From the NCBI GenBank assembly GCA_964372325.1, contig CAYJQG010000001.1, positions 120-64,119 of the forward strand: a DNA stretch of 64,000 nucleotides, written 5' to 3'. This document shows positions 26,970 to 52,879 of this stretch, one piece after another. Source of the DNA: an uncultured Candidatus Saccharibacteria bacterium (GTDB taxonomy: Bacteria > Patescibacteriota > Minisyncoccia > UBA6257 > JAUSGH01). The position numbers were made by a program, and so were the translations under genes. The notes beneath the pieces are model-generated. The model did not search any database. It saw only the letters and a program-made list of their open reading frames with translations, and was not told where the DNA came from. The first letter of the stretch is position 1, and every line of letters begins with the position of its first letter.

Positions 26970-27905
26970 GTGACCACAGAAAAGGGGGGAAAAGAAGAAA
27001 TGAAGCTGACCATCGTAAGCGCCCATAAGAATTCGTTTGGCCGTAATATGCAGCAGTTTGGAATTAGTGGAATGCCGACAATCGGCGTGCGAAGGAACGA
27101 ACAGTTCGGTGTCGTATTCGAAAACACGACTCATCAGCCGGTACAGGTGAAGATTGCAATCGATGGTACCGACATTCTGACCGGCGCCCCGGCGACAACC
27201 GCTACAAATGGCAAGATGTGGTTCGTGAAGCCGTACGAAAAGCTTGTTCTTAAGGCGTGGCCTGAGGACCAGCACGGTGGCGCGCAGTTCGTGTTCACCG
27301 ATGTTGAGAACTCAGTTGCTGCTCATACGCATGGCAATATGGCCGCGCGTGGGTACATCTCCGCTGCGGTGTTCGTCGAAGGGGCACCTCCCCCAATTTC
27401 CCCGAGTTATATGCTCGATAGCCTGACTTTTAGAGGCAATACGCGCGGAGCTTCGAAGGGGATATCGGGTGATATGATGGGCCTTCCGGGCGTTGGTGCG
27501 GGTCAGCGGGTGAACCAGCGCATTGAAGAGGTCTCTGGGCTTCGTAGCCCGAGGTTCTCGGAGATCGTCCAGGTGAAGTACTGTTGGTGGAATGATTTGA
27601 GGAGTAATCCGGAGTTCATCGCGCTCGTTTCTGGCGCGACGTCGGTTGCGACTGCCGTTGTTGGCGAACAGATTTATGCGAACGGTCATCCGACCGGGTT
27701 CCTTGCGGGTAATAATTGGGCAGACCTTGGTACGACTCCGCGTTTGAATAAGGGTGGTCTGCCGACTACGGTGGTTGAGCGGAAAGAAAACTTCAAGGAA
27801 GACGGTTCGCGACGTAACCGGAAGCATAGTCATGTGCAGACCGGTATTTCAAACGATGCGCGCTTCGAAGACACGAACGTCCGCGACCTCGTTGAGACGC
27901 TGTAA
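26970..27905 (+). CDS. hypothetical protein in a GC-rich segment; start possibly ATG 27001
   Basis: 311-aa ORF. Codon usage is GC-richer than genome neighbours. Preceded by a ~240-nt structured GC-rich leader and followed by an intrinsic terminator. Confidence 0.5.
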   Translation: MTTEKGGKEEMKLTIVSAHKNSFGRNMQQFGISGMPTIGVRRNEQFGVVFENTTHQPVQVKIAIDGTDILTGAPATTATNGKMWFVKPYEKLVLKAWPEDQHGGAQFVFTDVENSVAAHTHGNMAARGYISAAVFVEGAPPPISPSYMLDSLTFRGNTRGASKGISGDMMGLPGVGAGQRVNQRIEEVSGLRSPRFSEIVQVKYCWWNDLRSNPEFIALVSGATSVATAVVGEQIYANGHPTGFLAGNNWADLGTTPRLNKGGLPTTVVERKENFKEDGSRRNRKHSHVQTGISNDARFEDTNVRDLVETL

Positions 27906-27936
27906 AAGTAAAAACAGAATTAAGCTCTAAAAGTGT

Positions 27937-27959
27937 CACCCGCCGATGGCGGGTTTTTT
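27937..27959 (+). terminator. intrinsic terminator
   Basis: cccgcc-gat-ggcggg-tttttt. Confidence 0.85.
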
Positions 27960-27960
27960 C

Positions 27961-28150
27961 TATAAAACAATAGACTCGGCTCTCCCGATAACATTTCGGC
28001 TCTGATGCCCATGAATTTCGGCTACGACTTCGTGAAAAAATCTCAACAGACTCTGTGAATAGCTTTCCGTTTTTTCACTTCGTCTCGCCTGCCTGCCGGT
28101 AGGCAGGCTCGAAATGAGCGCAAAAATCCCTCGAAAGCTTATCGGGAGCC
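27961..28150. mobile_element. family D MITE-like element, complete
   Basis: 19-bp TIR tagactcggctctcccgataa / ttatcgggagccgagtcta. Interior carries cctgcctgccggtaggcagg. Confidence 0.85.
28087..28106. repeat. GC palindrome copy
   Basis: cctgcctgccggtaggcagg inside a family D element. Confidence 0.75.
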
Positions 28151-28183
28151 GAGTCTAATACAGCAAGATAACGATAAATAATC

Positions 28184-28206
28184 AAAACTCTCCTTTCGGA
28201 GAGTTT
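28184..28206. terminator. bidirectional hairpin terminator
   Basis: aaactctcc-tttc-ggagagtttt. Confidence 0.7.
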
Positions 28207-28341
28207 TGACCACAAATAGATGAGAGCCGATAGGCTCTGGCATTCCTCGAAGCGAACTCCAGGGAATACTCACACTTCAATCTGTTTGTAGTATAGCAGA
28301 CACCTCGCAGTAAAGTCAAATTTTTGTATGAGGCCCTATGC

Positions 28342-28397
28342 AATTTTTTAATAACTCGAATAACATACGATCGTATGTTATTCGAGTTATTAAAAAA
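28342..28397. repeat. 56-nt perfect palindrome centred on ACGATCGT
   Basis: attttttaataactcgaataacatacgatcgtatgttattcgagttattaaaaaat. All 28 mirror pairs verified by hand. Confidence 0.85.
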
Positions 28398-28417
28398 TCC
28401 CCCAATGGAGGACCAGT

Positions 28418-29428
28418 TTAAATCTCAAGAGATTCTTCTTCGGTTGCAGTACCGGGTTTAGTCTTAGATTTGTTCGTATCAGGCCTAGGGGAGTCCGCAA
28501 GAGATTCTTCAAGCTCCTTCAAAGTTTTCGTGATCGAACGCGCAACTTTCGTATCTGTGCCACTTTCTTTGAGGTGGCTGAGGGCATCGGCGAGTGTTAC
28601 CTTGCGTTCGGTAACGCCAATTGCGACTGCAACGAGTTCGGAAAGCGCTTCGGGATTTTCCAGGCGCAGTACGTGGCTAGAGCCAAGAAGTGCAGACCAG
28701 CGTTTCGTGATCTCCACAGTTCCCCAATATGAAGTTTGGTTGGGGATCACGAAGAAAATCTCGTATTTCTTCGAAGCTTCGGCAAGGATACCTTCAATGG
28801 AGATGTTTTTACGAAGATCGTCGCCAATAATTTTCTTTACCTGCGAAGCAACAACTTCCGCATAGGGCAATTCATCACCGACAATAAAGAGGTACCCCTT
28901 TTTCCCGCGTTTCTCAAAACAATCAATTGCGGTATGGCGTGCAGCGAAGTAAGGTACAAGTTCATACGACTCCTTCATTTGCCCACCGCCACCGGCCTCA
29001 AGGAAAAGACGACTCAAATCATTATCCATTTCAATGCCAGACTCAAATTGCCCAGTTTGGAGGGGCGCCTTGTCGCACCCAACGCTTGCATCGCCAACGG
29101 CGCCGAAGAGGATTTGTGGGTGTGGGACATAGCCTCGTTTAAGGAGAAGTCCCATTAACTTCGGAAGGTTACTTTGGAAAATTCGGGGAGTGTCCTTCAT
29201 GCTTCCGGTAACATCAATAACAAGCATAATTGCGAGCGATTCGGGGTGCGCGGCGCTATCGCGACTTTCTCGAGTGACATTCTTGGGGTTCATGTCGCGA
29301 TTGACTTTACGTTCATTGCTGGGTACAGACTGCATCGAGGCATCGTACGCGAATGCGTCTTTCTTAGTTTTCTTTCGAGCAGCTTTTTTATCAAAATAAG
29401 TTTTATCATCCCAAGAGCCGCCACCCAT
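28418..29428 (-). CDS. von Willebrand factor type A (VWA) domain protein
   Basis: 336 aa. MIDAS motif LVIDVTGSM (DxTxS) with downstream T and D residues. Lys-rich N-terminus. Confidence 0.7.
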   Translation of the reverse strand: MGGGSWDDKTYFDKKAARKKTKKDAFAYDASMQSVPSNERKVNRDMNPKNVTRESRDSAAHPESLAIMLVIDVTGSMKDTPRIFQSNLPKLMGLLLKRGYVPHPQILFGAVGDASVGCDKAPLQTGQFESGIEMDNDLSRLFLEAGGGGQMKESYELVPYFAARHTAIDCFEKRGKKGYLFIVGDELPYAEVVASQVKKIIGDDLRKNISIEGILAEASKKYEIFFVIPNQTSYWGTVEITKRWSALLGSSHVLRLENPEALSELVAVAIGVTERKVTLADALSHLKESGTDTKVARSITKTLKELEESLADSPRPDTNKSKTKPGTATEEESLEI

Positions 29429-29504
29429 GGTGTTTCTCCGTTTTCAAGGTGCCGGGACTAGACGGTATATCTAGCCCTTAATTAAAGTAAAGCAGGTGAA
29501 TAAC

Positions 29505-29525
29505 TTAGTGTCAAGGGGACACTAA
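29505..29525. promoter_or_regulatory. inverted-repeat operator candidate TTAGTGTC-AAGGGG-ACACTAA upstream of the VWA gene
   Basis: Same core motif TAGTGTCAAG-N3-ACACTA recurs at 32061-32080 upstream of the nadE fusion gene. Confidence 0.5.
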
Positions 29526-29572
29526 CAATGAAAAAAGTTCTAATAAAAATCAGAGCACATTGGCTCTGACAG

Positions 29573-32032
29573 TTATCGATAAAGTTTATTTGCTTCAATA
29601 TATTGTGCGACTTCCGTGGTGACAAGATCTGCGATCGATGTCCCTGCGGCAATATATTCTCGAATCAGCGTACTGCGACCGAAGGTAATGGGGAGGTCAA
29701 TGACGCGAGATTTTTTGGGGAGGTCGGCAAGCGCGATAGGCGAGCCAGTGGTATTCAACACTGCGAAGTTGAGGTTGTCCCAAACTTCTTTTCCGCGAAC
29801 CCAGGTTGTTTGGATTGGAGATTGTTGATCGCGGCCATTTGCGACAAGATCACCGCCAATCACAAACCAAAGTTCGGCAGTAGGGAATTGGGTGCTAGCG
29901 CGTTCGGCGAGTGTGATAGTCGGGGTAAATGTGTCTGCATCGAGGTCGGTAAAGTCAAGGGTAACGTTATTAATTTTAGCGAAAGCTTCTTTCGCCATAG
30001 CTTTTCGGTGCAGAAGAGAAACATTCGCGGTAGTTTTTTTATCATGACGCTCGCCACATGGCACCACAAGAACTTTCTCGAACGATTTGCTTAAACACTC
30101 GATGATTGCGCTATGGTGTAACCCCGGTGGGTTAAAACTTCCGCCATATACTGCGATGCGTGTACGCCCCATGAGTTGTGGGAGTACGCGGTCACGCAAA
30201 TATAAGTATTGTGCGGTGAAGTGGGGGGGCGCAAGTGTCTCTTCAAGGTCGCGGCCAAATGCGCGCCTTGAATAAATGGGAACCGGTGGGCATTGAATGC
30301 GCTTAAAGAATCCGCGATGGAAATTACGCACTTGGCGTTCAAGGTCCGTTACAAAATCAGCGGATGTAGGGAATAGGCGCTTTAAGGTTCCGGCATCAAG
30401 TTTGAGTTCTGCCTCGAGTGTGCCTTTAATATAGAGCTCAAGAAACCACTCTGCATTCTTGCGAAAATCGGTAAACGCGCGGACCATTTCGTCGTGGTAG
30501 CCGCGTCGCAATGTGTCGCCATAGTCAAAGGGATCTTTTTGGTTTGCGGAAAGTTCTGCGGTGGGGATTTGGTTAATGCAGGCATCGGGTATAATAAGTC
30601 GGCCAAATTTTTTATTGAGGTATTCCGCGATTTGTCGCACTTCGCGTTTCACGAGGTCGCCTAATGGCGCAAAGTAACCAGCGACATCTCCATAAAGTGT
30701 GCCGTAGCCAAACGCCATTTCAACTTTATTGGTATTGCAGGTAAAAACTCCTCCAAGTTTTTGCGCTTCTGCTGCGAGAACTTCTTCTCGGGCACGTGCT
30801 TGGACATTTTCATAAGTGATCGTTCCAGGAACAATACTTCTCGTTGCGGCGATCGCGTTCACGATATTCTCGATGGGGGCAACTTCGTATGAGATACCGA
30901 GATTTTCCGCAATAGCGCGAGCATAGCCCTTAATAGTATCGCTATTTAAATCTTTGAAAGGCATATTGATTGCATGCACGCGCGCAGGGCCGAATACGTC
31001 AGTCATTAATGCTGCACTCACCGCTGAGTCAATGCCGCCACTAAGGCCAATAACAATCGGTGCTTTAAGTGGGGTAATCGATTTCGTCGCAGCGACCATC
31101 GCGCCATAAAGTTCTTCGGTATCGTTAGGGACTTGGTCGGGGACACGAGCCATGGTTGGCGTAAACGTAAAGTCGCGAGTCTCGGCAACGTAAGGTGAAA
31201 TTTCAAACACTACTTCGCCGTTGCGGTTATACACCGTCGAGCAGCCATCGAACACAATAACGTTTTTTCCTGTTTGCTGGGCGCCGGTGTTATTGACGTA
31301 GATAAACGGAACCGGAGATTCTTTAAGTAGTCGTTCAACAATCATGTGGCGCTTGCGTGTTTTCTGCCACGTCCATGGTGAGGCTGAGAGATTCACAATA
31401 AGCTCAGCGCCCTTAGCGACCAATATTTTTGTGGGGTTTAAGGCGTAGTCCGCATGCCACATATCTTCGCAGAGAATAACACCGAGTCGAATGGTACCGA
31501 GCGGAGTTTGTAGTGGAATGATCGGCAACAAATTACGTAAATGTACATCGCGTTCTTCAGCAAGAGCGCGCATCGAAAAAAAATGTTTTGCGTCATTAAA
31601 GAATCGGTAATTCGGTTGCAGCGACTTAATAGTCCCACCAAAGAATGGTCCTAACGTTTTACCGTCGCGTGCAACGATTGCTCCGTTATGTTTGCGCACT
31701 CTACCATCTTCACCTTTGGCGTTTTGATCTACAGTAACAGTCCCAAAAATCGCGGTAATGGGGAGCCCACGAGTCGATTCGACAATTTTACGATTCAAGC
31801 GAGAAACATCTTCGATAAAGTAAGGATCTTCGAAACGATCGGCAATAATGTACCCCGTAGTTGCAAGTTCGGGGAATATGACAAGGTGCGATCCGCGAGC
31901 TGACGCATATTGGATTTCTTCAATAATATAATTGGCATTGCGATCGGGTCGGCCAGGCTCTACGGGCATTTGAGCCAACGAAACCTTAAGGTCGTTCATC
32001 GATTGCCCTCCATATGCATCGGCTGTAATCAT
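29573..32032 (-). CDS. nadE: tri-domain NAD biosynthesis fusion: nitrilase-type glutaminase, NAD+ synthetase (NadE) and C-terminal nicotinate-nucleotide adenylyltransferase (NadD)
   Basis: 819 aa. N-terminal CN-hydrolase domain (FPELATTGY, catalytic Cys in GVILCEDMWH). Central PP-loop SGGIDSAVSAAL of NadE. C-terminal ~215 aa with RIAVYGGSFNPPGLHH, a (H/T)xGH-type nucleotidyltransferase motif of NadD/NMNAT. Confidence 0.85.
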   Translation of the reverse strand: MITADAYGGQSMNDLKVSLAQMPVEPGRPDRNANYIIEEIQYASARGSHLVIFPELATTGYIIADRFEDPYFIEDVSRLNRKIVESTRGLPITAIFGTVTVDQNAKGEDGRVRKHNGAIVARDGKTLGPFFGGTIKSLQPNYRFFNDAKHFFSMRALAEERDVHLRNLLPIIPLQTPLGTIRLGVILCEDMWHADYALNPTKILVAKGAELIVNLSASPWTWQKTRKRHMIVERLLKESPVPFIYVNNTGAQQTGKNVIVFDGCSTVYNRNGEVVFEISPYVAETRDFTFTPTMARVPDQVPNDTEELYGAMVAATKSITPLKAPIVIGLSGGIDSAVSAALMTDVFGPARVHAINMPFKDLNSDTIKGYARAIAENLGISYEVAPIENIVNAIAATRSIVPGTITYENVQARAREEVLAAEAQKLGGVFTCNTNKVEMAFGYGTLYGDVAGYFAPLGDLVKREVRQIAEYLNKKFGRLIIPDACINQIPTAELSANQKDPFDYGDTLRRGYHDEMVRAFTDFRKNAEWFLELYIKGTLEAELKLDAGTLKRLFPTSADFVTDLERQVRNFHRGFFKRIQCPPVPIYSRRAFGRDLEETLAPPHFTAQYLYLRDRVLPQLMGRTRIAVYGGSFNPPGLHHSAIIECLSKSFEKVLVVPCGERHDKKTTANVSLLHRKAMAKEAFAKINNVTLDFTDLDADTFTPTITLAERASTQFPTAELWFVIGGDLVANGRDQQSPIQTTWVRGKEVWDNLNFAVLNTTGSPIALADLPKKSRVIDLPITFGRSTLIREYIAAGTSIADLVTTEVAQYIEANKLYR

Positions 32033-32060
32033 ACACTAAGTATAGCCGTTAAGCAATATA

Positions 32061-32080
32061 TAGTGTCAAGAGTACACTAA
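32061..32080. promoter_or_regulatory. inverted-repeat operator candidate TAGTGTCAAGAGTACACTAA upstream of the nadE-nadD fusion gene
   Basis: 17 of 20 nt identical to the 29505-29525 site. Lies in the divergent nadE / rpsF intergenic region. Confidence 0.5.
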
Positions 32081-32165
32081 TATACCATTGCGTGGTTTAA
32101 GGCGACATGAGGCGACACGAGGCAAACTGAACTTAACAAGGCAAAACGAGGAAAACTTTACAACT

Positions 32166-32207
32166 AAAATCTCGCCTTAGTTACGATCGTAACTAAGGCG
32201 AGATTTT
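32166..32207. repeat. 42-nt perfect palindrome centred on ACGATCGT
   Basis: aaaatctcgccttagttacgatcgtaactaaggcgagatttt, in the divergent nadE / rpsF promoter region. Confidence 0.85.
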
Positions 32208-32324
32208 GATAAAATGTTTCCTAAAGTGTTTATGTCTCATGGATATAAATCATTTATAGATAATCATTACGTAAGATTTGACTATCCATTGACTCTCTAA
32301 AGTAGTTCTGCTAAAGTACTTTCA

Positions 32325-32804
32325 ATGTCTGAAGAGCAAGTTTTAGAAGATAAAAAATCATACGAAGTGAGTTTTTTGGTGACTGAGGAAACTGTAGTTG
32401 CAGATATTGAAGCCGTGTTTATTGCAAACGGGTTTACGGTATCACATAAAGGACAGTTGCAAAACTTAAAGCTTGCGTACCCAATCCAAAAGCACGTGAG
32501 TGCATTTTTTGGGTTTTACCACTTACTTGGTGGTTCCCAAGATATTTTAAAAGTAAAAGAAGCGTTGGCGTTGAATAAAAAAATCCTTCGCACCTTAGTG
32601 CTTTCGTCCGCAATCCCAATGGTGGTGCGCGAAAGCAGGGTTGAGCAACGTGTCAAGCGTACCCGCGGAGGAGACATGCAAGAAAAAATCGAAAACGTTG
32701 TGCCAATGTCCATGCCCAAACCAGAAGAGCAGCGCAGGCCAATGGAACCAACGGTCTTAAGCAACGAAGGATTAGAAAAGAAGTTAGAGGAAATATTAAA
32801 ATAA
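32325..32804 (+). CDS. rpsF: 30S ribosomal protein S6 with acidic/basic C-terminal extension
   Basis: YEVSFLVTEE...GQLQNLKLAYPIQKHVSAFFGFYHL matches bS6. Heads the rpsF-ssb-rpsR cluster. Confidence 0.8.
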   Translation: MSEEQVLEDKKSYEVSFLVTEETVVADIEAVFIANGFTVSHKGQLQNLKLAYPIQKHVSAFFGFYHLLGGSQDILKVKEALALNKKILRTLVLSSAIPMVVRESRVEQRVKRTRGGDMQEKIENVVPMSMPKPEEQRRPMEPTVLSNEGLEKKLEEILK

Positions 32805-45192: not shown

Positions 45193-45756
45193 GGAATACG
45201 ACATAACCGTCAAGCAGTATTCCGCCGAAGTTCGGCCAGTGTAATAAACTCGTACCGACCCGGGGCGATCGTCTCGTTTTTCTTCGGCAATTTTTTCAAC
45301 AGCAAACGAAAATCCAGTTGCGGGCATAGGGCTCGAAGCGAGGTAGCACTGAATATAAACTCGTCCGTCAATTGTTTTTTCACACGAGACAATAACTTGG
45401 AGTGCGATACCACAGGGCAAGACAACATAAGCCTCAGCATGTTTGTCTGGCGTAAGTGCTTGCCCACCCTCCTCTTGTTTAAAAGCAAAGCGCACAAACC
45501 ATGAGATGACCGGGACATTATCGAATAATCGATGCATGGTACTTTGCACGAGTTTCCACTCTACAAGCGTACCAATGAGATACATCAACCCCATAAGTAA
45601 GGCAAGATTAGTGGCGACGTTAAGCACTGCATAGTTCGTTGCATGAACTCCAAGCGAAACGGTGATATCCCACGCCTTCAAGAGCAGAAAGCTAATAACG
45701 CTAAGTGGAATAATAATCATTAGTCCTTTTTTGAATCGACGACGGTACACTCGCAT
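45184..45756 (-). CDS. DUF502-family membrane protein
   Basis: 190 aa. Two N-terminal TM helices. C-terminal PMPATGFSFAV resembles the DUF502 P.P.SGF motif. Stop codon lies inside the MITE-C terminus. Confidence 0.5.
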   Translation of the reverse strand: MRVYRRRFKKGLMIIIPLSVISFLLLKAWDITVSLGVHATNYAVLNVATNLALLMGLMYLIGTLVEWKLVQSTMHRLFDNVPVISWFVRFAFKQEEGGQALTPDKHAEAYVVLPCGIALQVIVSCEKTIDGRVYIQCYLASSPMPATGFSFAVEKIAEEKRDDRPGSVRVYYTGRTSAEYCLTVMSYSMK

Positions 45757-45823: not shown

Positions 45824-45960
45824 TAGCCACTAACGGAAAAATCCCAAACTTCAAGCATCAAATAACAAATAAATTCCAATTTTTGGGCATTCGAATTTAT
45901 ATATTGGATATTATTTGGGATTTGATTATTGAGATTTGGTGTTTGTGTCTTTAGTGGCTA
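45824..45960. mobile_element. family C MITE-like element
   Basis: tagccactaacggaaaaatcccaaacttcaagcatcaaataacaaataaattccaa ... tctttagtggcta. Confidence 0.8.
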
Positions 45961-45992
45961 TTAACTTATCAAATGGTATACAGTCAAAGTAT

Positions 45993-47723
45993 ATGGCCGA
46001 CACGCAAGAAATCAAAAATAAAATAGACGTTGTGGATTTTATAGGGGCATATGTAAAGTTGATGCCTGCGGGAAAGAATTTTAAGGGTCTTTGTCCATTC
46101 CACAAAGAAAAGAGTCCGTCGTTTATGGTCACTCGCGACAGGCAGTCGTGGCATTGTTTTGGTTGTAATGAGGGCGGAGATATTTTTAAATTTTTAATGC
46201 AGTTTGAGCACCTCGAATTTTTTGAGGCGTTAAAAATATTAGCCGAACGTGCAGGGGTAGAGCTGAAGGGTGGGCAAGGAATGGAGTCATATCGAGAGTT
46301 ATATGAGGTAAACCTTGTCGCTAAAGATTTTTTTAAACAAGAATTACAAAAATTAGGCGCGCATCAAGAGCATGCAAGGGCATATCTTCAATCGCGTGGG
46401 TTGAAAAAAGAAACCATTGATACGTTTGAAATTGGTGTGGCTTCTACGAGTTCAGATGCATTGCTACGGTATTTAATTGCAGCGAAAAAGTCGCTGCACG
46501 ACATTGAGCGTGCTGGGTTGGTATTTCGTAGCGAGCGGGGGACGTACTTCGACCGTTTCAGAGGGCGGATTATGTTCCCGCTATATAATAGTTTCGGGAA
46601 AGTGGTAGGGTTTACTGGCCGTGTGCTTCCGGGGAGCGAGCAGTTGAGCGGATTCGAGGCCGCAAAATACGTTAATAGTCCCGAGACACCGATTTTTAGT
46701 AAATCAAAGTTGTTGTATGGCTTTTACGCGGCGAAACAACATATTCGTGAGACGAAAACAGTAGTCATAGTGGAGGGTCAGATGGATTTTTTAATGTCTT
46801 GGCAAGATGGGGTAAAGAATGTGGTAGCGTCATCGGGTACTGCGCTAACCGTTGATCAGTTAACGACACTTCGGCGCATTGCCGATACGGTGATATTGAG
46901 TTTCGATACCGATGCAGCGGGGATCGCCGCTGCAGAGCGAAGCATTGACACAGCACACAACATGGATTTTACTGTACGTTTGCTCGAAGTGGTGGGTTAC
47001 AAAGATCCCGCAGACGCAGTGCTAGGAGAGCCTGGTGCAATGGCACGTTTTATTGTAAACGCAAAACCAGCGCTGACCTATTACATTGATCGCTATATTC
47101 GTGATGGCGATGAGGCGGCAGTACAAAAACGGAATGTGCGCATAGTACTCGCAAAAATAAAACAAATGGAAAGTGCAATCGAGCGCCAGCATGCGATTCG
47201 GGCGTTAGGAGAGCGCGCGGGGCTCTCCGAAGAAGTATTAATGGAAGAGTTGCAACGTGTGGTAGTAGCAAATGCGCCGGTGATCAAAAAACGACAAGAT
47301 GAAATCGCGGCGGTATATGAAGAAAAGCGCTCACGTAGTGGGGCGATAAGCGAACGTCTACTCGGTCTTGCGTTGGTTGATGCAACGCTATTAAAAGAGA
47401 TGGAGTCAATGATAAAATTTATGGAAGAGCCATACCGTATGCTGTATGGGCACATCGTTAACGGGTCGTTACTCGATGTGCCGGGTCCCTTGCGTATACT
47501 CGCAGATAAAATAAGTTTAAGCGGGGGGTTGCTGGGTAACAGTGGAGAAAAAGGTGAGTCGGTGGTATTGTGTCGCGAGCTAAAACAGGAATATTTGAAG
47601 GGTCGCAGTGAAGCATTGCGTAGAGCGATTGCGTTGGCAGAGCGGCAAGGAGACGAAACGGCTCTTGGAAACGCGCTTAAAGAATTTGACGAAACAAACA
47701 AGGCGCTCCATACTCTAAGCTAG
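45993..47723 (+). CDS. dnaG: DNA primase
   Basis: CHC2 zinc finger (CPFHKEKSPSFMV...WHCFGCNEGGD), TOPRIM (VVIVEGQMDFL, SFDTDAAG). Start taken at MADTQEI. Stop TAG is the first triplet of a MITE-C copy. Confidence 0.9.
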   Translation: MADTQEIKNKIDVVDFIGAYVKLMPAGKNFKGLCPFHKEKSPSFMVTRDRQSWHCFGCNEGGDIFKFLMQFEHLEFFEALKILAERAGVELKGGQGMESYRELYEVNLVAKDFFKQELQKLGAHQEHARAYLQSRGLKKETIDTFEIGVASTSSDALLRYLIAAKKSLHDIERAGLVFRSERGTYFDRFRGRIMFPLYNSFGKVVGFTGRVLPGSEQLSGFEAAKYVNSPETPIFSKSKLLYGFYAAKQHIRETKTVVIVEGQMDFLMSWQDGVKNVVASSGTALTVDQLTTLRRIADTVILSFDTDAAGIAAAERSIDTAHNMDFTVRLLEVVGYKDPADAVLGEPGAMARFIVNAKPALTYYIDRYIRDGDEAAVQKRNVRIVLAKIKQMESAIERQHAIRALGERAGLSEEVLMEELQRVVVANAPVIKKRQDEIAAVYEEKRSRSGAISERLLGLALVDATLLKEMESMIKFMEEPYRMLYGHIVNGSLLDVPGPLRILADKISLSGGLLGNSGEKGESVVLCRELKQEYLKGRSEALRRAIALAERQGDETALGNALKEFDETNKALHTLS

Positions 47724-47882
47724 TAGTATTCGCCACTTATGATATAGCCACCAAAGATACAAGCACCAAATCTCAAATACCAAATTCCAAATAATATTTA
47801 ATAACTTAAATTCGAATTTAAAAAATTAGAATTTATTTGTTATTTGATGCTTGAAGTTTGGGATTTTTCCATTAGTGGCTAG
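47722..47882. mobile_element. family C MITE-like element, inverted relative to the 45022-45192 copy
   Basis: gtagtattcgccacttatgatatagccaccaaagatacaagcaccaaatctcaaatacc .... Begins with the dnaG stop codon TAG. Confidence 0.85.
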
Positions 47883-52496: not shown

Positions 52497-52760
52497 GCAT
52501 ATACGGGCCGCCGCAAGGGGAAGATGTCGGTCCCTACGGCCGGGTTTACCGCCGGGTGCCGGGCGCGGGCGGTCTGCTCGGGCGGTGGCTTCGACTTCAG
52601 CCTCGGCGATACCAGGGGTGGCTACGAAGCTTTCTTCTCCTTCTGCGACGTTGAATAGTTCTTAGAAACTTAAATGCTTGAAAATCTTTGGTTTTTGACC
52701 CTTTGAGCCTTTGTTCCCAGTTAGTTGGTGGACGAGGGCTCTTTTTTATTCATGATGGTT

Positions 52761-52798
52761 TTACTAAACAAGTTGACGATCGTCAACTTGTTTAGTAA
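52761..52798. repeat. 38-nt perfect palindrome centred on ACGATCGT
   Basis: ttactaaacaagttgacgatcgtcaacttgtttagtaa, downstream of alaS. Confidence 0.85.
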
Positions 52799-52879
52799 AT
52801 GTTGCAATTTAGTTTTTGTTATGGTATGATGAGCCGCAGTGCATTGGCATGGTTTTTATTATGAGGAGTGGCTTGATGT

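What the first reader, a model, noticed from the sequence alone, without database searches (positions are those of the whole stretch)
28418..32325. Tri-domain nitrilase-NadE-NadD fusion plus a shared inverted-repeat operator with the VWA gene
A single 819-aa protein joins the glutaminase, NAD synthetase and NaMN adenylyltransferase activities, the last two steps of NAD synthesis. This is uncommon. Upstream of both this gene and the adjacent VWA gene is the near-identical palindrome TAGTGTCAAG-N3-ACACTAA (29505-29525 and 32061-32080). That suggests a common repressor, possibly an NrtR/NiaR-like NAD regulator, and functionally links a VWA protein to NAD metabolism. An AGGCGACA / AGGCAAA direct-repeat array (32104-32150) lies in the same leader.
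Basis: partly seen in the sequence, partly recalled or inferred. Interest (0 to 1): 0.6.

Follow-up and report, generated by a model that had tools for sequence, protein, structure and literature searches.

The report
NrtR-controlled fused NAD synthase and VWA gene
Two near-identical 21-bp palindromes are binding sites of the known NAD regulator type NrtR, and they sit on the promoters of a fused enzyme for the last two steps of NAD synthesis and of a neighbouring uncharacterised VWA-fold gene that travels with NAD genes in many bacteria and some phages.

Summary
ORF 29573-32032(-) carries nitrilase, NAD-synthase and NadD-type domains; its likely start is 31999, giving 808 aa. TTAGTGT-N7-ACACTAA occurs at 29505-29525 (0 of 14 mismatches) and 32060-32080 (1 of 14); the next best site in the window has 4.

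The palindromes fit the published NrtR operator form: 21 bp with a GT-N7-AC core. The exact 17-base motif recurs in 44 unrelated genomes. An nrtR gene lies within the 8-kb locus held around the site in 19 of them, and the downstream genes are mostly pncB, nadE, nadA/B, pncA or nrtR.

One relative (L059) shows nrtR-[operator]-nadED-X-[operator]-Y-Z, the same two-operator layout.

No nrtR gene lies in this window, and the source genome could not be retrieved.

The fusion is not rare: 115 of the 120 best protein clusters are full length. Its NadD motif is a family-conserved xx(H/N)H variant, not HxGH.

The "VWA" gene has no Pfam hit, but its model matches integrin beta-I/VWA folds. It belongs to an uncharacterised cassette of kinase-like X, VWA-like Y and PurA-like Z. 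This cassette sits next to nrtR in several phyla and also occurs in Bixzunavirus mycobacteriophages.

The direct-repeat array is real but small, and I could not explain it.

The parts
29573..31999 (-). nadED: fused glutamine-dependent NAD synthetase and NaMN adenylyltransferase. It is 808 aa from ATG 31999; the mechanical ORF extends to 32032 (819 aa).
   Evidence: ORF. Pfam and NCBIfam domains. P0001 is 808 aa and 100% identical. SD GGAGGG at 32006-32011.
31196..31987 (-). Nitrilase-type glutaminase domain (aa 16-279 of the 819-aa ORF), with E55, K136 and C188 invariant in the family.
   Evidence: PF00795, 49.5 bits. Invariant columns in alignment A4.
30518..31057 (-). NAD synthase (PP-loop ATPase) domain, aa 326-505, with invariant SGGIDS. 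A conserved extension of about 115 aa follows (RGYHDE...FFKR).
   Evidence: PF02540, 142.8 bits; TIGR00552, 127.9 bits. A4.
29576..30166 (-). NadD-class nucleotidyltransferase domain, aa 623-819. Motifs are GGSFNPPGLHH (a variant of GxFxPxHxGH) and GRSTLIR (SxTxxR).
   Evidence: PF01467, 35.4 bits; TIGR00482 full-length match, E 4.6e-20. All PDB sequence hits are bacterial NadD or NadD-like nucleotidyltransferases, none NadM or eukaryotic NMNAT. Family conservation.
32060..32080 (.). NrtR-type operator 2 (aTAGTGT-CAAGAGT-ACACTAA). On the gene strand it contains TTGACA (32069-32064). The best -10 candidate is TATACT, at a 19-nt spacer.
   Evidence: The same 20-mer, TTAGTGTACTCTTGACACTA, precedes a pncA-like gene in L011 and L025 and a PP2C-like gene in L015.
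29505..29525 (.). NrtR-type operator 1 (TTAGTGT-CAAGGGG-ACACTAA, a perfect 7+7 dyad). It contains TTGACA (29514-29509) on the gene strand. The -10 candidate is TTTACT, at a 17-nt spacer.
29541..29570 (-). Intrinsic-terminator-like hairpin plus T-run after the nadED stop codon. It separates nadED from the promoter of the VWA-like gene.
   Evidence: 8-bp stem with 4 GC pairs, tail TTTTTATT.
28418..29428 (-). Y: VWA-fold protein of 336 aa, with a MIDAS-like D72-x-T74-x-S76 and a conserved N-terminal extension. Member of phrog_2971 and of the X-Y-Z cassette family.
28396..28414 (-). Terminator-like hairpin directly after the stop codon of the VWA-like gene.
32100..32156 (.). Short array in 10-bp register: AGGCGACA x2, AGGCAAAC, then a gap, then AGGCAAAA and AGGAAAAC. 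It lies about 30-90 bp upstream of the nadED -35 element. Function unknown.
   Evidence: No counterpart in L059 or L001 upstream regions by eye.
32166..32207 (.). Perfect 42-nt loop-less palindrome with A/T-run flanks, between the divergent nadED and rpsF promoters. It could act as a bidirectional terminator or insulator, or be a palindromic element.
   Evidence: rpsF promoter-like site at 32289-32317.
28343..28398 (.). Perfect 56-nt loop-less palindrome with the same TACGATCGTA centre, just downstream of the VWA-like gene.

Best explanation
The locus holds two adjacent minus-strand transcription units, each with its own NrtR-type operator.

What is shown:
- Two near-identical 21-bp palindromes, TTAGTGT-N7-ACACTAA, lie upstream of nadED and of the VWA-like gene Y.
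- Each overlaps a TTGACA hexamer on the gene strand.

What is inferred:
- A dimeric NrtR repressor (Nudix-like sensor domain plus winged helix), encoded outside this 64-kb window, binds both operators and blocks RNA polymerase at the -35 element.
- By analogy with characterised NrtR proteins, ADP-ribose, the product of NAD-consuming reactions, releases the repressor.

nadED is a single polypeptide. Its NadD-class domain should adenylylate NaMN to NaAD. Its PP-loop synthetase domain should amidate NaAD to NAD using ammonia from its nitrilase-type glutaminase domain. The catalytic residues are shown; the activities are inferred.

Y is a VWA/MIDAS-fold protein of unknown biochemical role. It belongs to a conserved cassette: X (kinase-like), Y, and Z (PurA-like ligase). 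Elsewhere this cassette sits beside nrtR and NAD genes. My best guess is that Y is a metal-dependent binding or adaptor subunit of an NAD- or ADP-ribose-linked process. This genome keeps only Y next to nadED.
For: Motif form and position:
- Only two strong sites exist in the window, both upstream of genes.

Cross-genome evidence:
- The exact 17-base motif occurs in 44 loci from other genomes. NrtR-like ORFs lie within the 8-kb locus in 19 of them (tblastn).
- Of the 33 downstream ORFs scanned with Pfam, 5 match NAD_synthase, 3 NAPRTase_N, 2 FAD_binding_2 (NadB type), 2 NrtR_WHD, 1 NadA and 1 Isochorismatase.
- Tandem copies of the motif occur in L019, L023, L049, L032, L021 and L026.
- A canonical -10 box at a 16-18 nt spacer follows the embedded TTGACA in 14 of 44 hits.

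Layout in relatives:
- L059: nrtR, operator (1 mismatch), tri-domain nadED, X, operator (2 mismatches), Y, Z.
- L056: two perfect operators in front of nrtR-NADAR-X-Y-Z.
- L032: nrtR, then three operators, then X-Y.
- L036: X-Y-Z-nrtR-nadE<operator>nadD.

Enzyme:
- Three Pfam domains score above their cut-offs.
- E55/K136/C188, SGGIDS, H640 and the G-x-x-T-x-x-R motif are invariant or nearly so across 30 homologues.
- The C-terminal domain aligns end to end with solved bacterial NadD structures.

Y:
- VWA fold.
- nadED-Y adjacency in L001 (57% identity), L058 and L059.
Against: - No nrtR gene lies in the 64-kb window (HMM search of all ORFs). The source genome is absent from genome contigs, so I could not show that the regulator exists in this organism.
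- The closest relative, L001/L002 (60% identical nadED), keeps the nadED-Y synteny but has no such motif. L058 has none either. The regulation is therefore not universal.
- The 44 exact hits are not more than chance predicts (about 70 by my uniform-composition estimate). Some are clearly unrelated: an archaeal thrS locus, and a Bacteroidales repeat in L028, L038 and L047.
- Neither promoter is canonical. The nadED -10 sits at a 19-nt spacer, and the Y -10 is TTTACT.
- NiaR operators also carry TGT/ACA signatures, so motif shape alone does not exclude another regulator.
- The NadD domain lacks the first His of HxGH and scores below the NCBIfam equivalog cut-offs.
- I have no direct evidence for any biochemical role of Y.
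Confidence: 0.78

Rival explanations
1. The palindromes are operators of a different transcription factor, such as NiaR, a MerR/HspR-like protein or an unknown CPR regulator. They only resemble NrtR sites.
For: No nrtR in the window. NiaR operators also use TGT/ACA half-sites. The 7-N7-7 layout is shared by other dyads such as HAIR (my own knowledge). The nadED promoter has a MerR-like 19-nt spacer.
Against: The identical motif lies beside nrtR genes in 19 of 44 loci from many phyla, directly in front of nrtR itself in L018, L033 and L056, and in L059 beside a nadED-X-Y-Z cluster. No alternative regulator gene recurs in those loci.
Confidence: 0.1
2. The shared sequence is only a strong promoter module, a -35 element plus an upstream element, duplicated in front of two genes. 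No dedicated repressor is involved.
For: Both copies contain CTTGACA in the same orientation relative to the genes, and the asymmetric spacer bases CAAG are also shared. 14 of 44 foreign hits have a canonical -10 at the right distance.
Against: Neither dyad symmetry outside the -35 element nor recurrence specifically at NAD genes and nrtR across phyla is expected of a plain promoter. Tandem copies lacking TTGACA occur, for example in L032 at 6484, L021 at 545 and L056 at 5706. No other promoter in the window uses the motif.
Confidence: 0.05
3. The palindromes act at the RNA level as hairpins in the nadED 3' region and 5' leader, or are remnants of a palindromic mobile element like the ACGATCGT-centred palindromes nearby.
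For: The locus is rich in hairpins and perfect palindromes. Site 1 lies 16-45 nt beyond the nadED terminator.
Against: The stems are short (6-8 bp), have no U-run, and lie upstream of the likely transcription starts. Rfam finds nothing there. The sequence is conserved across phyla at the DNA-motif level, with variable spacers.
Confidence: 0.03

Closest known systems
NrtR regulon and operator (Nudix-related transcriptional regulator; Rodionov et al. 2008, PMC2330246)
   Same: A 21-bp palindrome with a GT-N7-AC core that overlaps promoter elements of NAD genes. nadE and nadD are classical NrtR targets in cyanobacteria, Clostridium, Cytophaga and Blastopirellula. The same motif lies next to nrtR in 19 other genomes and in L059 and L056.
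   Different: The regulator gene is not in the window. One target is a fused nadE-nadD gene. The second target is an uncharacterised VWA-fold gene. The 2008 paper lists unnamed NrtR targets 'nrtX-nrtY' of unknown function; I could not establish whether these are the X-Y genes seen here.
Type F (fused) glutamine-dependent NAD synthetase NadE (De Ingeniis et al. 2012, PMC3376133)
   Same: An N-terminal nitrilase-like glutaminase with the E-K-C triad, fused to a PP-loop synthetase domain with SGGxDS.
   Different: It carries an extra C-terminal NadD-class domain and a conserved linker of about 115 aa. It scores below the NCBIfam equivalog cut-off (303 against 479 bits). The 2012 survey does not mention this three-domain form.
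Bacterial NadD (NaMN adenylyltransferase; e.g. PDB 1yul, 8aih, 5db4, 1kam)
   Same: Full-length alignment to solved NadD structures. GGxFxP, GGD and SxTxxR motifs are present. TIGR00482 matches positions 1-194 of 194.
   Different: HxGH is replaced by xx(H/N)H (GLHH here), with only the last His invariant. By my own recall this resembles the TxxH of eukaryotic NMNAT. The match is below the equivalog cut-off. The domain is fused rather than free-standing.
Kinase / hypothetical protein / 'PurA-like adenylosuccinate synthetase' gene trio of Bixzunavirus mycobacteriophages (e.g. Turret gp251, gp252, gp254); PHROGs 3043, 2971, 1211
   Same: Y is homologous to gp252 (37% identity over 90% of its length) and to phrog_2971 (E 1e-61). 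The X-Y-Z order is the same in bacterial loci L003, L036, L052, L056 and L059.
   Different: The window has Y only, with no X or Z. The phage copies have no NrtR operator. No function is published for the trio as far as my searches reached.
TerY-P-type vWA / PP2C / Ser-Thr kinase triads (Anantharaman, Iyer and Aravind 2012; recalled from memory, not read here)
   Same: A VWA protein is paired with a kinase-like protein. PP2C_2 genes sit behind the same NrtR operator in L015, L019 and L026.
   Different: No PP2C or kinase gene lies next to Y in the window. I did not show PP2C adjacent to Y in any locus. Y is not detected by the Pfam VWA or TerY models.

Membership tests
NrtR operator / NrtR regulon | 21-bp palindrome with a conserved GT-N7-AC core | tested here: met
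   TTAGTGT-N7-ACACTAA at 29505-29525 and 32060-32080. Definition taken from PMC2330246.
NrtR operator / NrtR regulon | Site overlaps the promoter, or lies between promoter and start codon, of NAD-metabolism genes | tested here: met
   Both sites contain TTGACA on the gene strand, 71 and 87 nt before the start codons. One target is nadED. Promoter assignment is by consensus only.
NrtR operator / NrtR regulon | The same motif co-occurs with nrtR genes and NAD genes in other genomes | tested here: met
   19 of 44 loci with the exact motif carry an NrtR-like ORF. Downstream genes include pncB, nadE, nadA/B, pncA and nrtR. L059 and L056 have operators beside nrtR and the nadED/X-Y-Z genes.
NrtR operator / NrtR regulon | An nrtR gene (Nudix plus NrtR winged-helix domain) in the same genome | not testable with these tools
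   None in the 64-kb window (HMM, best E about 1). The source genome is not in genome contigs and its contig is not on record.
NrtR operator / NrtR regulon | Specific NrtR binding that is relieved by ADP-ribose | not testable with these tools
   Needs EMSA or a reporter assay.
Glutamine-dependent NAD synthetase (NadE type F) | Nitrilase-type domain with the Glu-Lys-Cys triad | tested here: met
   PF00795, 49.5 bits. E55, K136 and C188 are invariant in 30 homologues.
Glutamine-dependent NAD synthetase (NadE type F) | PP-loop NAD synthase domain with SGGxDS | tested here: met
   PF02540, 142.8 bits; TIGR00552, 127.9 bits against a 63.65 cut-off. SGGIDS is invariant.
Glutamine-dependent NAD synthetase (NadE type F) | Score above the NCBIfam equivalog cut-off (NF010588) | tested here: not met
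   303.5 bits against a cut-off of 479; the match covers model positions 3-465 of 546.
NadD (NaMN adenylyltransferase) | Nucleotidyltransferase (CTP_transf_like) fold of the NadD class rather than NadM or NMNAT | tested here: met
   PF01467, 35.4 bits against 21. The best NCBIfam hits are nadD models. All 18 PDB sequence hits are bacterial NadD or NadD-like nucleotidyltransferases, none NadM or eukaryotic NMNAT.
NadD (NaMN adenylyltransferase) | (H/T)xGH ATP-binding motif | tested here: inconclusive
   GGSFNPPGLHH aligns to GGTFDPVHIGH of 1yul. The first His becomes Gly, the Gly becomes His, and the last His is kept. Across the fusion family the pattern is xx(H/N)H, with H640 invariant and H639 at 90% or more.
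NadD (NaMN adenylyltransferase) | C-terminal SxTxxR motif | tested here: met
   GRSTLIR aligns to SATQIR and SSTKIR of solved NadD structures. G785 and R791 are invariant.
NadD (NaMN adenylyltransferase) | Score above the equivalog cut-off (TIGR00482) | tested here: not met
   72.5 bits against 112.45.
VWA domain | Sequence match to VWA profile families | tested here: not met
   No Pfam or NCBIfam VWA hit at E up to 0.01-0.1. No PDB sequence hit at E up to 1.
VWA domain | Rossmann-like VWA fold with a MIDAS motif | tested here: met
   AlphaFold2 model with pLDDT 79 and pTM 0.83. Foldseek top 50 are almost all integrin beta-subunit chains (beta-I/VWA domain), plus the pilus adhesin SpaC, at E 4e-7 to 5e-6 and prob 1.00. 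D72, T74, S76 and D185 are invariant. TM-scores are only about 0.44.
vWA / PP2C / kinase (TerY-P-like) triad | Adjacent kinase and PP2C genes | tested here: not met
   No X-like kinase in the window by tblastn and HMM, and no PP2C homologue by tblastn. A kinase-like X is adjacent to Y only in relatives (L003, L032, L036, L052, L056, L059).

The most novel reading that the evidence does not exclude
The VWA-fold protein Y, the kinase-like protein X and the PurA-like ligase Z form a previously undescribed functional module. It is controlled by ADP-ribose through NrtR and is wired to the last steps of NAD synthesis. Patescibacteria, Saccharibacteria, Planctomycetota and large mycobacteriophages share it. 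It could be a new route for handling ADP-ribose or NAD breakdown products, or a fourth NAD-restoring strategy distinct from NARP1-3. In this genome and in L001, L058 and L059 it is physically coupled to a three-domain NadE-NadD enzyme.
Probability: 0.25. Interest if true: 0.75.

Novelty: new member of a known kind. Interest (0 to 1): 0.5.

Why it matters
Little is reported about gene regulation in Patescibacteria (CPR). In this case a regulator-operator pair known from cultured bacteria can be read directly from the sequence and assigned to two promoters.

The fused NadE-NadD would compress the two universal last steps of NAD synthesis into one protein, and it is widespread but uncharacterised. 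It would suit studies of substrate channelling, and it shows that a non-canonical xx(H/N)H motif can be conserved in NadD-type enzymes.

The more interesting lead is the second target. A strongly conserved VWA-fold family has about 2,260 clusters at 50% identity and about 50% identity between phyla. It repeatedly sits under NrtR control beside a kinase-like and a PurA-like gene, and it is also carried by phages. NAD depletion is a major anti-phage strategy and NrtR senses ADP-ribose, so this cassette is a concrete, testable candidate for new NAD or ADP-ribose biology.

Tried and rejected
- **Riboswitch or sRNA in the leaders.** Rfam at gathering threshold over the whole window and at E up to 1 over 27900-32400 gave only tRNAs and spurious miRNA-like hairpin hits.
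- **nrtR in the window.** tblastn and an HMM built from 15 NrtR homologues found nothing.
- **Regulon in the source genome.** The genome is not in genome contigs, the contig is not on record for P0001, and P0121 led only to a 1.3-kb Logan contig.
- **Other operator copies in the window.** None with fewer than 4 mismatches.
- **NadR operator.** TGTTTA-N6-TAAACA is a different sequence. NiaR is not excluded by motif shape, but I found no co-localisation evidence for it.
- **Known defence systems.** PADLOC gave no hit for Y or Z, and only generic kinase-domain hits for X.
- **NARP1-3.** These use different genes: Adps/Namat, Nampt/Nmnat and PnuC/NadR-like.
- **nrtX/nrtY of Rodionov 2008.** The supplement is not held. 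A homologue search starting from the phage Y protein returned Saccharibacteria and Acidimicrobiia, not the Streptomyces, Proteus or Hahella genomes named in the paper. This stays unresolved.
- **Literature on the NadE-NadD fusion.** Nothing found.
- **Direct repeats as a CsrA-type sRNA.** I considered this and rejected it by eye: the motifs are AGGC rather than GGA, and I saw no plus-strand promoter.
Full report
**1. What is in the sequence**

The region holds two minus-strand genes between plus-strand housekeeping genes. Upstream is rpsF-ssb-rpsR. Further away are tpiA, a SIMPL protein, PBP2 and dnaG.

ORF 29573-32032(-) encodes 819 aa. Pfam places CN_hydrolase at 16-279, NAD_synthase at 326-501 and CTP_transf_like at 628-775. 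NCBIfam gives NAD synthase models for the first 500 residues and nadD models (TIGR00482, model positions 1-194 of 194, E 4.6e-20) for residues 623-819, all below the equivalog cut-offs. The first ATG has no ribosome-binding site. ATG 31999 follows GGAGGG-N6, and the identical public protein P0001 is 808 aa.

A terminator-like hairpin (29549-29570 plus a T-run) follows the stop codon. The second gene is 28418-29428(-), 336 aa.

**2. The palindromes are real and not chance**

TTAGTGTCAAGGGGACACTAA lies at 29505-29525 and ATAGTGTCAAGAGTACACTAA at 32060-32080. They are the only matches to TAGTGT-N7-ACACTA with up to 1 mismatch, against 0.06 expected. Over the 14 dyad positions they have 0 and 1 mismatches, and the next best site in 64 kb has 4.

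Read on the gene strand, both are TTAGTGT-NNN-CTTGACACTA(A/T). Each therefore embeds a consensus -35 hexamer. Candidate -10 boxes are TTTACT at a 17-nt spacer for the VWA-like gene and TATACT at a 19-nt spacer for nadED. Promoter assignment is inference from consensus.

**3. The motif is an NrtR-type operator**

Rodionov et al. [quoted passage not shown] They place them on or just downstream of promoters, with nadE and nadD among the classical targets (PMC2330246). Both window sites fit this.

I scanned one genome per GTDB species for the exact pattern TAGTGTCAAGNNNACACTAA. It returned 44 loci. That is no more than chance would give (about 70 by my estimate), and the source genome was absent. 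The content of the loci is far from random:
- An NrtR-like ORF lies within the 8-kb locus in 19 of 44 (HMM, E below 1e-5; tblastn).
- Of the 33 downstream ORFs scanned with Pfam, 5 match NAD_synthase, 3 NAPRTase_N, 2 FAD_binding_2 (NadB type), 2 NrtR_WHD, 1 NadA and 1 Isochorismatase. There are also three PP2C_2 proteins, plus two kinase-like proteins seen by BLAST and a later Pfam scan.
- Second and third copies of the dyad lie next to the first in L019, L023, L049, L032, L021, L026, L015 and L025.
- 14 of 44 have a canonical -10 box 16-18 nt after the embedded TTGACA.
- The 20-mer in front of nadED is identical to sites in two Anaerolineae genomes and one Saccharibacteria genome.

The motif is therefore a widely used operator of NrtR. 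The NadR operator is TGTTTA-N6-TAAACA. NiaR shares only TGT/ACA signatures.

**4. The regulator itself is not in the window**

An HMM built from 15 NrtR homologues finds nothing among all stop-to-stop ORFs (best E about 1). The rest of the genome could not be retrieved. This is the main gap in the argument.

**5. The fusion**

Of the 120 best 90%-identity clusters, 115 are full length (780-859 aa, 45-60% identity). Most are annotated with all three Pfam domains. They come from Nealson-, Vogel- and Falkowbacteria and other Patescibacteria, and from Blastocatellia, Holophagales and Thermoanaerobaculia. NCBI names them "NAD(+) synthase"; UniRef names one "nicotinate-nucleotide adenylyltransferase". 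Two-domain relatives at 56-59% identity also exist (P0111-P0113, P0117, P0119). The architecture is thus common in databases. I found no paper describing it.

In an alignment of 30 members, the following are invariant or nearly so:
- the nitrilase triad (E55, K136, C188);
- the PP-loop SGGIDS;
- a strongly conserved linker of about 115 aa (RGYHDE...FFKR);
- NadD features: GGSFNP, H640, GGD, and G-[SR]-[SG]-T-x-x-R.

Against solved NadD structures, GGSFNPPGLHH aligns with GGTFDPVHIGH. The first His of HxGH is not conserved in this family (it is G, A, S, C or L). The third position is H or N, and the last His is invariant. This is a conserved variant rather than decay, but whether it supports catalysis is untested. 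All PDB sequence hits are bacterial NadD or NadD-like nucleotidyltransferases, none NadM or eukaryotic NMNAT, so the class is NadD. No second nadD-like gene lies in the window.

**6. The VWA-like gene**

It has no Pfam, NCBIfam or PDB sequence match. It belongs to a very conserved family of hypothetical proteins, about 50% identical between this genome and Planctomycetota. A profile search of 1.84 billion representatives gives 2,260 clusters at E up to 1e-3 and 955 at E up to 1e-30.

An AlphaFold2 model from 35 sequences has pLDDT 79 and pTM 0.83. Foldseek matches integrin beta-I (VWA) domains at E 4e-7 and prob 1.00, though TM is only about 0.44. D72-x-T74-x-S76 and D185 are invariant, which fits a MIDAS site.

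**7. The link between the VWA-like gene and NAD genes is conserved**

Calling the gene Y, the contexts are:

| Locus | Gene order |
|---|---|
| L001/L002 | nadED, Y, 221-aa protein, AAA+, Y paralogue, 330-aa protein, 217-aa protein, PK-like, PurA-like Z |
| L058 | AAA+, 114-aa protein, Y paralogue, nadED, Y, PK-like, Z, then an isochorismatase gene two genes further on |
| L059 | nrtR, operator TTAGTGTAACAATAACACTAT, nadED, kinase-like X, operator ATAGTGTGCATTTAACACTTA, Y, Z |
| L056 | two perfect operators, nrtR, NADAR, X, Y, Z, with an ADP-ribosylglycohydrolase gene nearby |
| L052/L053 | nrtR, X, Y, Z |
| L036 (Saccharibacteria) | X, Y, Z, nrtR, nadE<operator>nadD |
| L032 (Parcubacteria) | nrtR, three operators, X, Y |
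| L003 | X, Y, Z |

L059 reproduces the window's two-operator layout, with the regulator next door.

Y also occurs in a phage-like contig (L054) and in 220 phage records. These are mostly Bixzunavirus mycobacteriophages, where the order is Ser/Thr kinase, hypothetical protein (Y), small ORF, "PurA-like adenylosuccinate synthetase". PHROGs assigns Y to phrog_2971 (unknown function), X to phrog_3043 (kinase) and Z to phrog_1211.

PADLOC has no model for Y or Z. The published phage NAD-reconstitution pathways NARP1-3 use other genes. The window itself has neither X nor Z.

[quoted passage not shown] I could not determine whether they are X-Y.

**8. Mechanism: shown versus inferred**

Shown:
- two strong dyads on two promoter regions;
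- the dyad's association with nrtR and NAD genes elsewhere;
- intact catalytic motifs in three enzyme domains;
- the VWA fold of Y;
- conserved synteny of nadED, Y, Z, X and nrtR.

Inferred:
- an NrtR dimer encoded elsewhere in the genome occludes the -35 elements;
- ADP-ribose relieves repression, as shown for Synechocystis and Shewanella NrtR in PMC2330246;
- NadED converts NaMN to NaAD to NAD;
- Y acts in an NAD- or ADP-ribose-linked process, perhaps as a metal-dependent adaptor.

**9. The direct repeats**

AGGCGACAtg, AGGCGACAcg and AGGCAAACtg (32100-32129) sit in exact 10-bp register. AGGCAAAAcg and AGGAAAAC (32139-32156) follow. Tandem Repeats Finder scores only 2.4 copies. The local density is above background. 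I saw nothing similar upstream of nadED in L001 or L059. Helical phasing upstream of a promoter could mean a second DNA-binding protein or simple slippage. I leave this unexplained.

**10. Verdict**

Most of it is a new instance of known biology: an NrtR operator, NadE and NadD. The part worth following up is the recurring placement of the uncharacterised X-Y-Z cassette, and here Y alone, under NrtR control beside a fused NadE-NadD.

Noticed in passing
window 28343-28398, 32166-32207, 52760-52799: Three perfect loop-less palindromes of 56, 42 and 40 nt share the centre ACGA|TCGT, which contains a CGATCG site. Two of them bracket the minus-strand nadED-Y pair. They may be bidirectional terminators or a family of palindromic elements.
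   Followed up: partly
window 45049-45144 and 47766-47861: Two 96-nt imperfect palindromes are reverse-complement copies of each other. They flank a 2.6-kb segment containing an orphan 190-aa ORF (45184-45756, minus strand) and dnaG (45936-47723; Pfam). This could be an invertible or mobile segment, or paired terminators.
   Followed up: partly
window 32033-32039: An extra isolated half-site, TTAGTGT on the gene strand, lies directly after the TATACT -10 candidate and abuts the unused ATG at 32032. It has no partner arm.
   Followed up: no
window 29454-29477; L001 12500-12545: The leader of the VWA-like gene contains a hairpin, GGGaCTAGA-N7-TCTAGCCC. In L001 the equivalent leader has a hairpin followed by a T-run, which looks like an attenuator. 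The Y leader may carry a second layer of control.
   Followed up: no
L015 2834-3640, L019 1019-1480, L026 690-1541; also L030, L025, L014: PP2C_2-family phosphatase genes sit directly behind the same NrtR operator, often with 2-3 tandem sites, in Saccharibacteria and other genomes. This suggests a kinase, phosphatase and VWA signalling set inside NrtR regulons.
   Followed up: partly
L057 (Mycobacterium phage Turret 149226-150245) and P0409: The phage copy of Y is about 70% identical to a Saccharimonadaceae protein, much closer than to the window's Y (37%). This hints at gene exchange between actinobacteriophages and Saccharibacteria, which live on Actinobacteria.
   Followed up: no
L028, L038, L047 (one Bacteroidales MAG, contig CBDDKV010000002.1): Three copies of the exact motif share conserved flanks (GGTAATCCGTAGGCGTCA...TTTAGTGTTGACTTGACACTA). 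This is a dispersed repeat or a promoter family unrelated to NAD genes, and a reminder that some motif hits are not NrtR sites.
   Followed up: no
L001 13663-20501; L058 2144-11145: In two relatives nadED-Y is embedded in a larger conserved cluster: an AAA+ ATPase (IetA-like in PADLOC), a 30%-identical Y paralogue, a pyruvate-kinase-barrel-like protein and several ORFs with no hits, ending with PurA-like Z.
   Followed up: partly
window 26970-27905 (+): A 311-aa ORF converging on the VWA-like gene has no significant hit in Pfam, NCBIfam, PHROGs or PADLOC. The 500-bp gap between them (27906-28417) is packed with hairpins.
   Followed up: no
L011, L025, L030, L040: A conserved family of 307-378-aa proteins (FYNPD...LLLVDxQ) sits behind the operator in four genomes. 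It is only weakly similar to the PncA-type isochorismatase of L039 and may be a divergent nicotinamidase.
   Followed up: no
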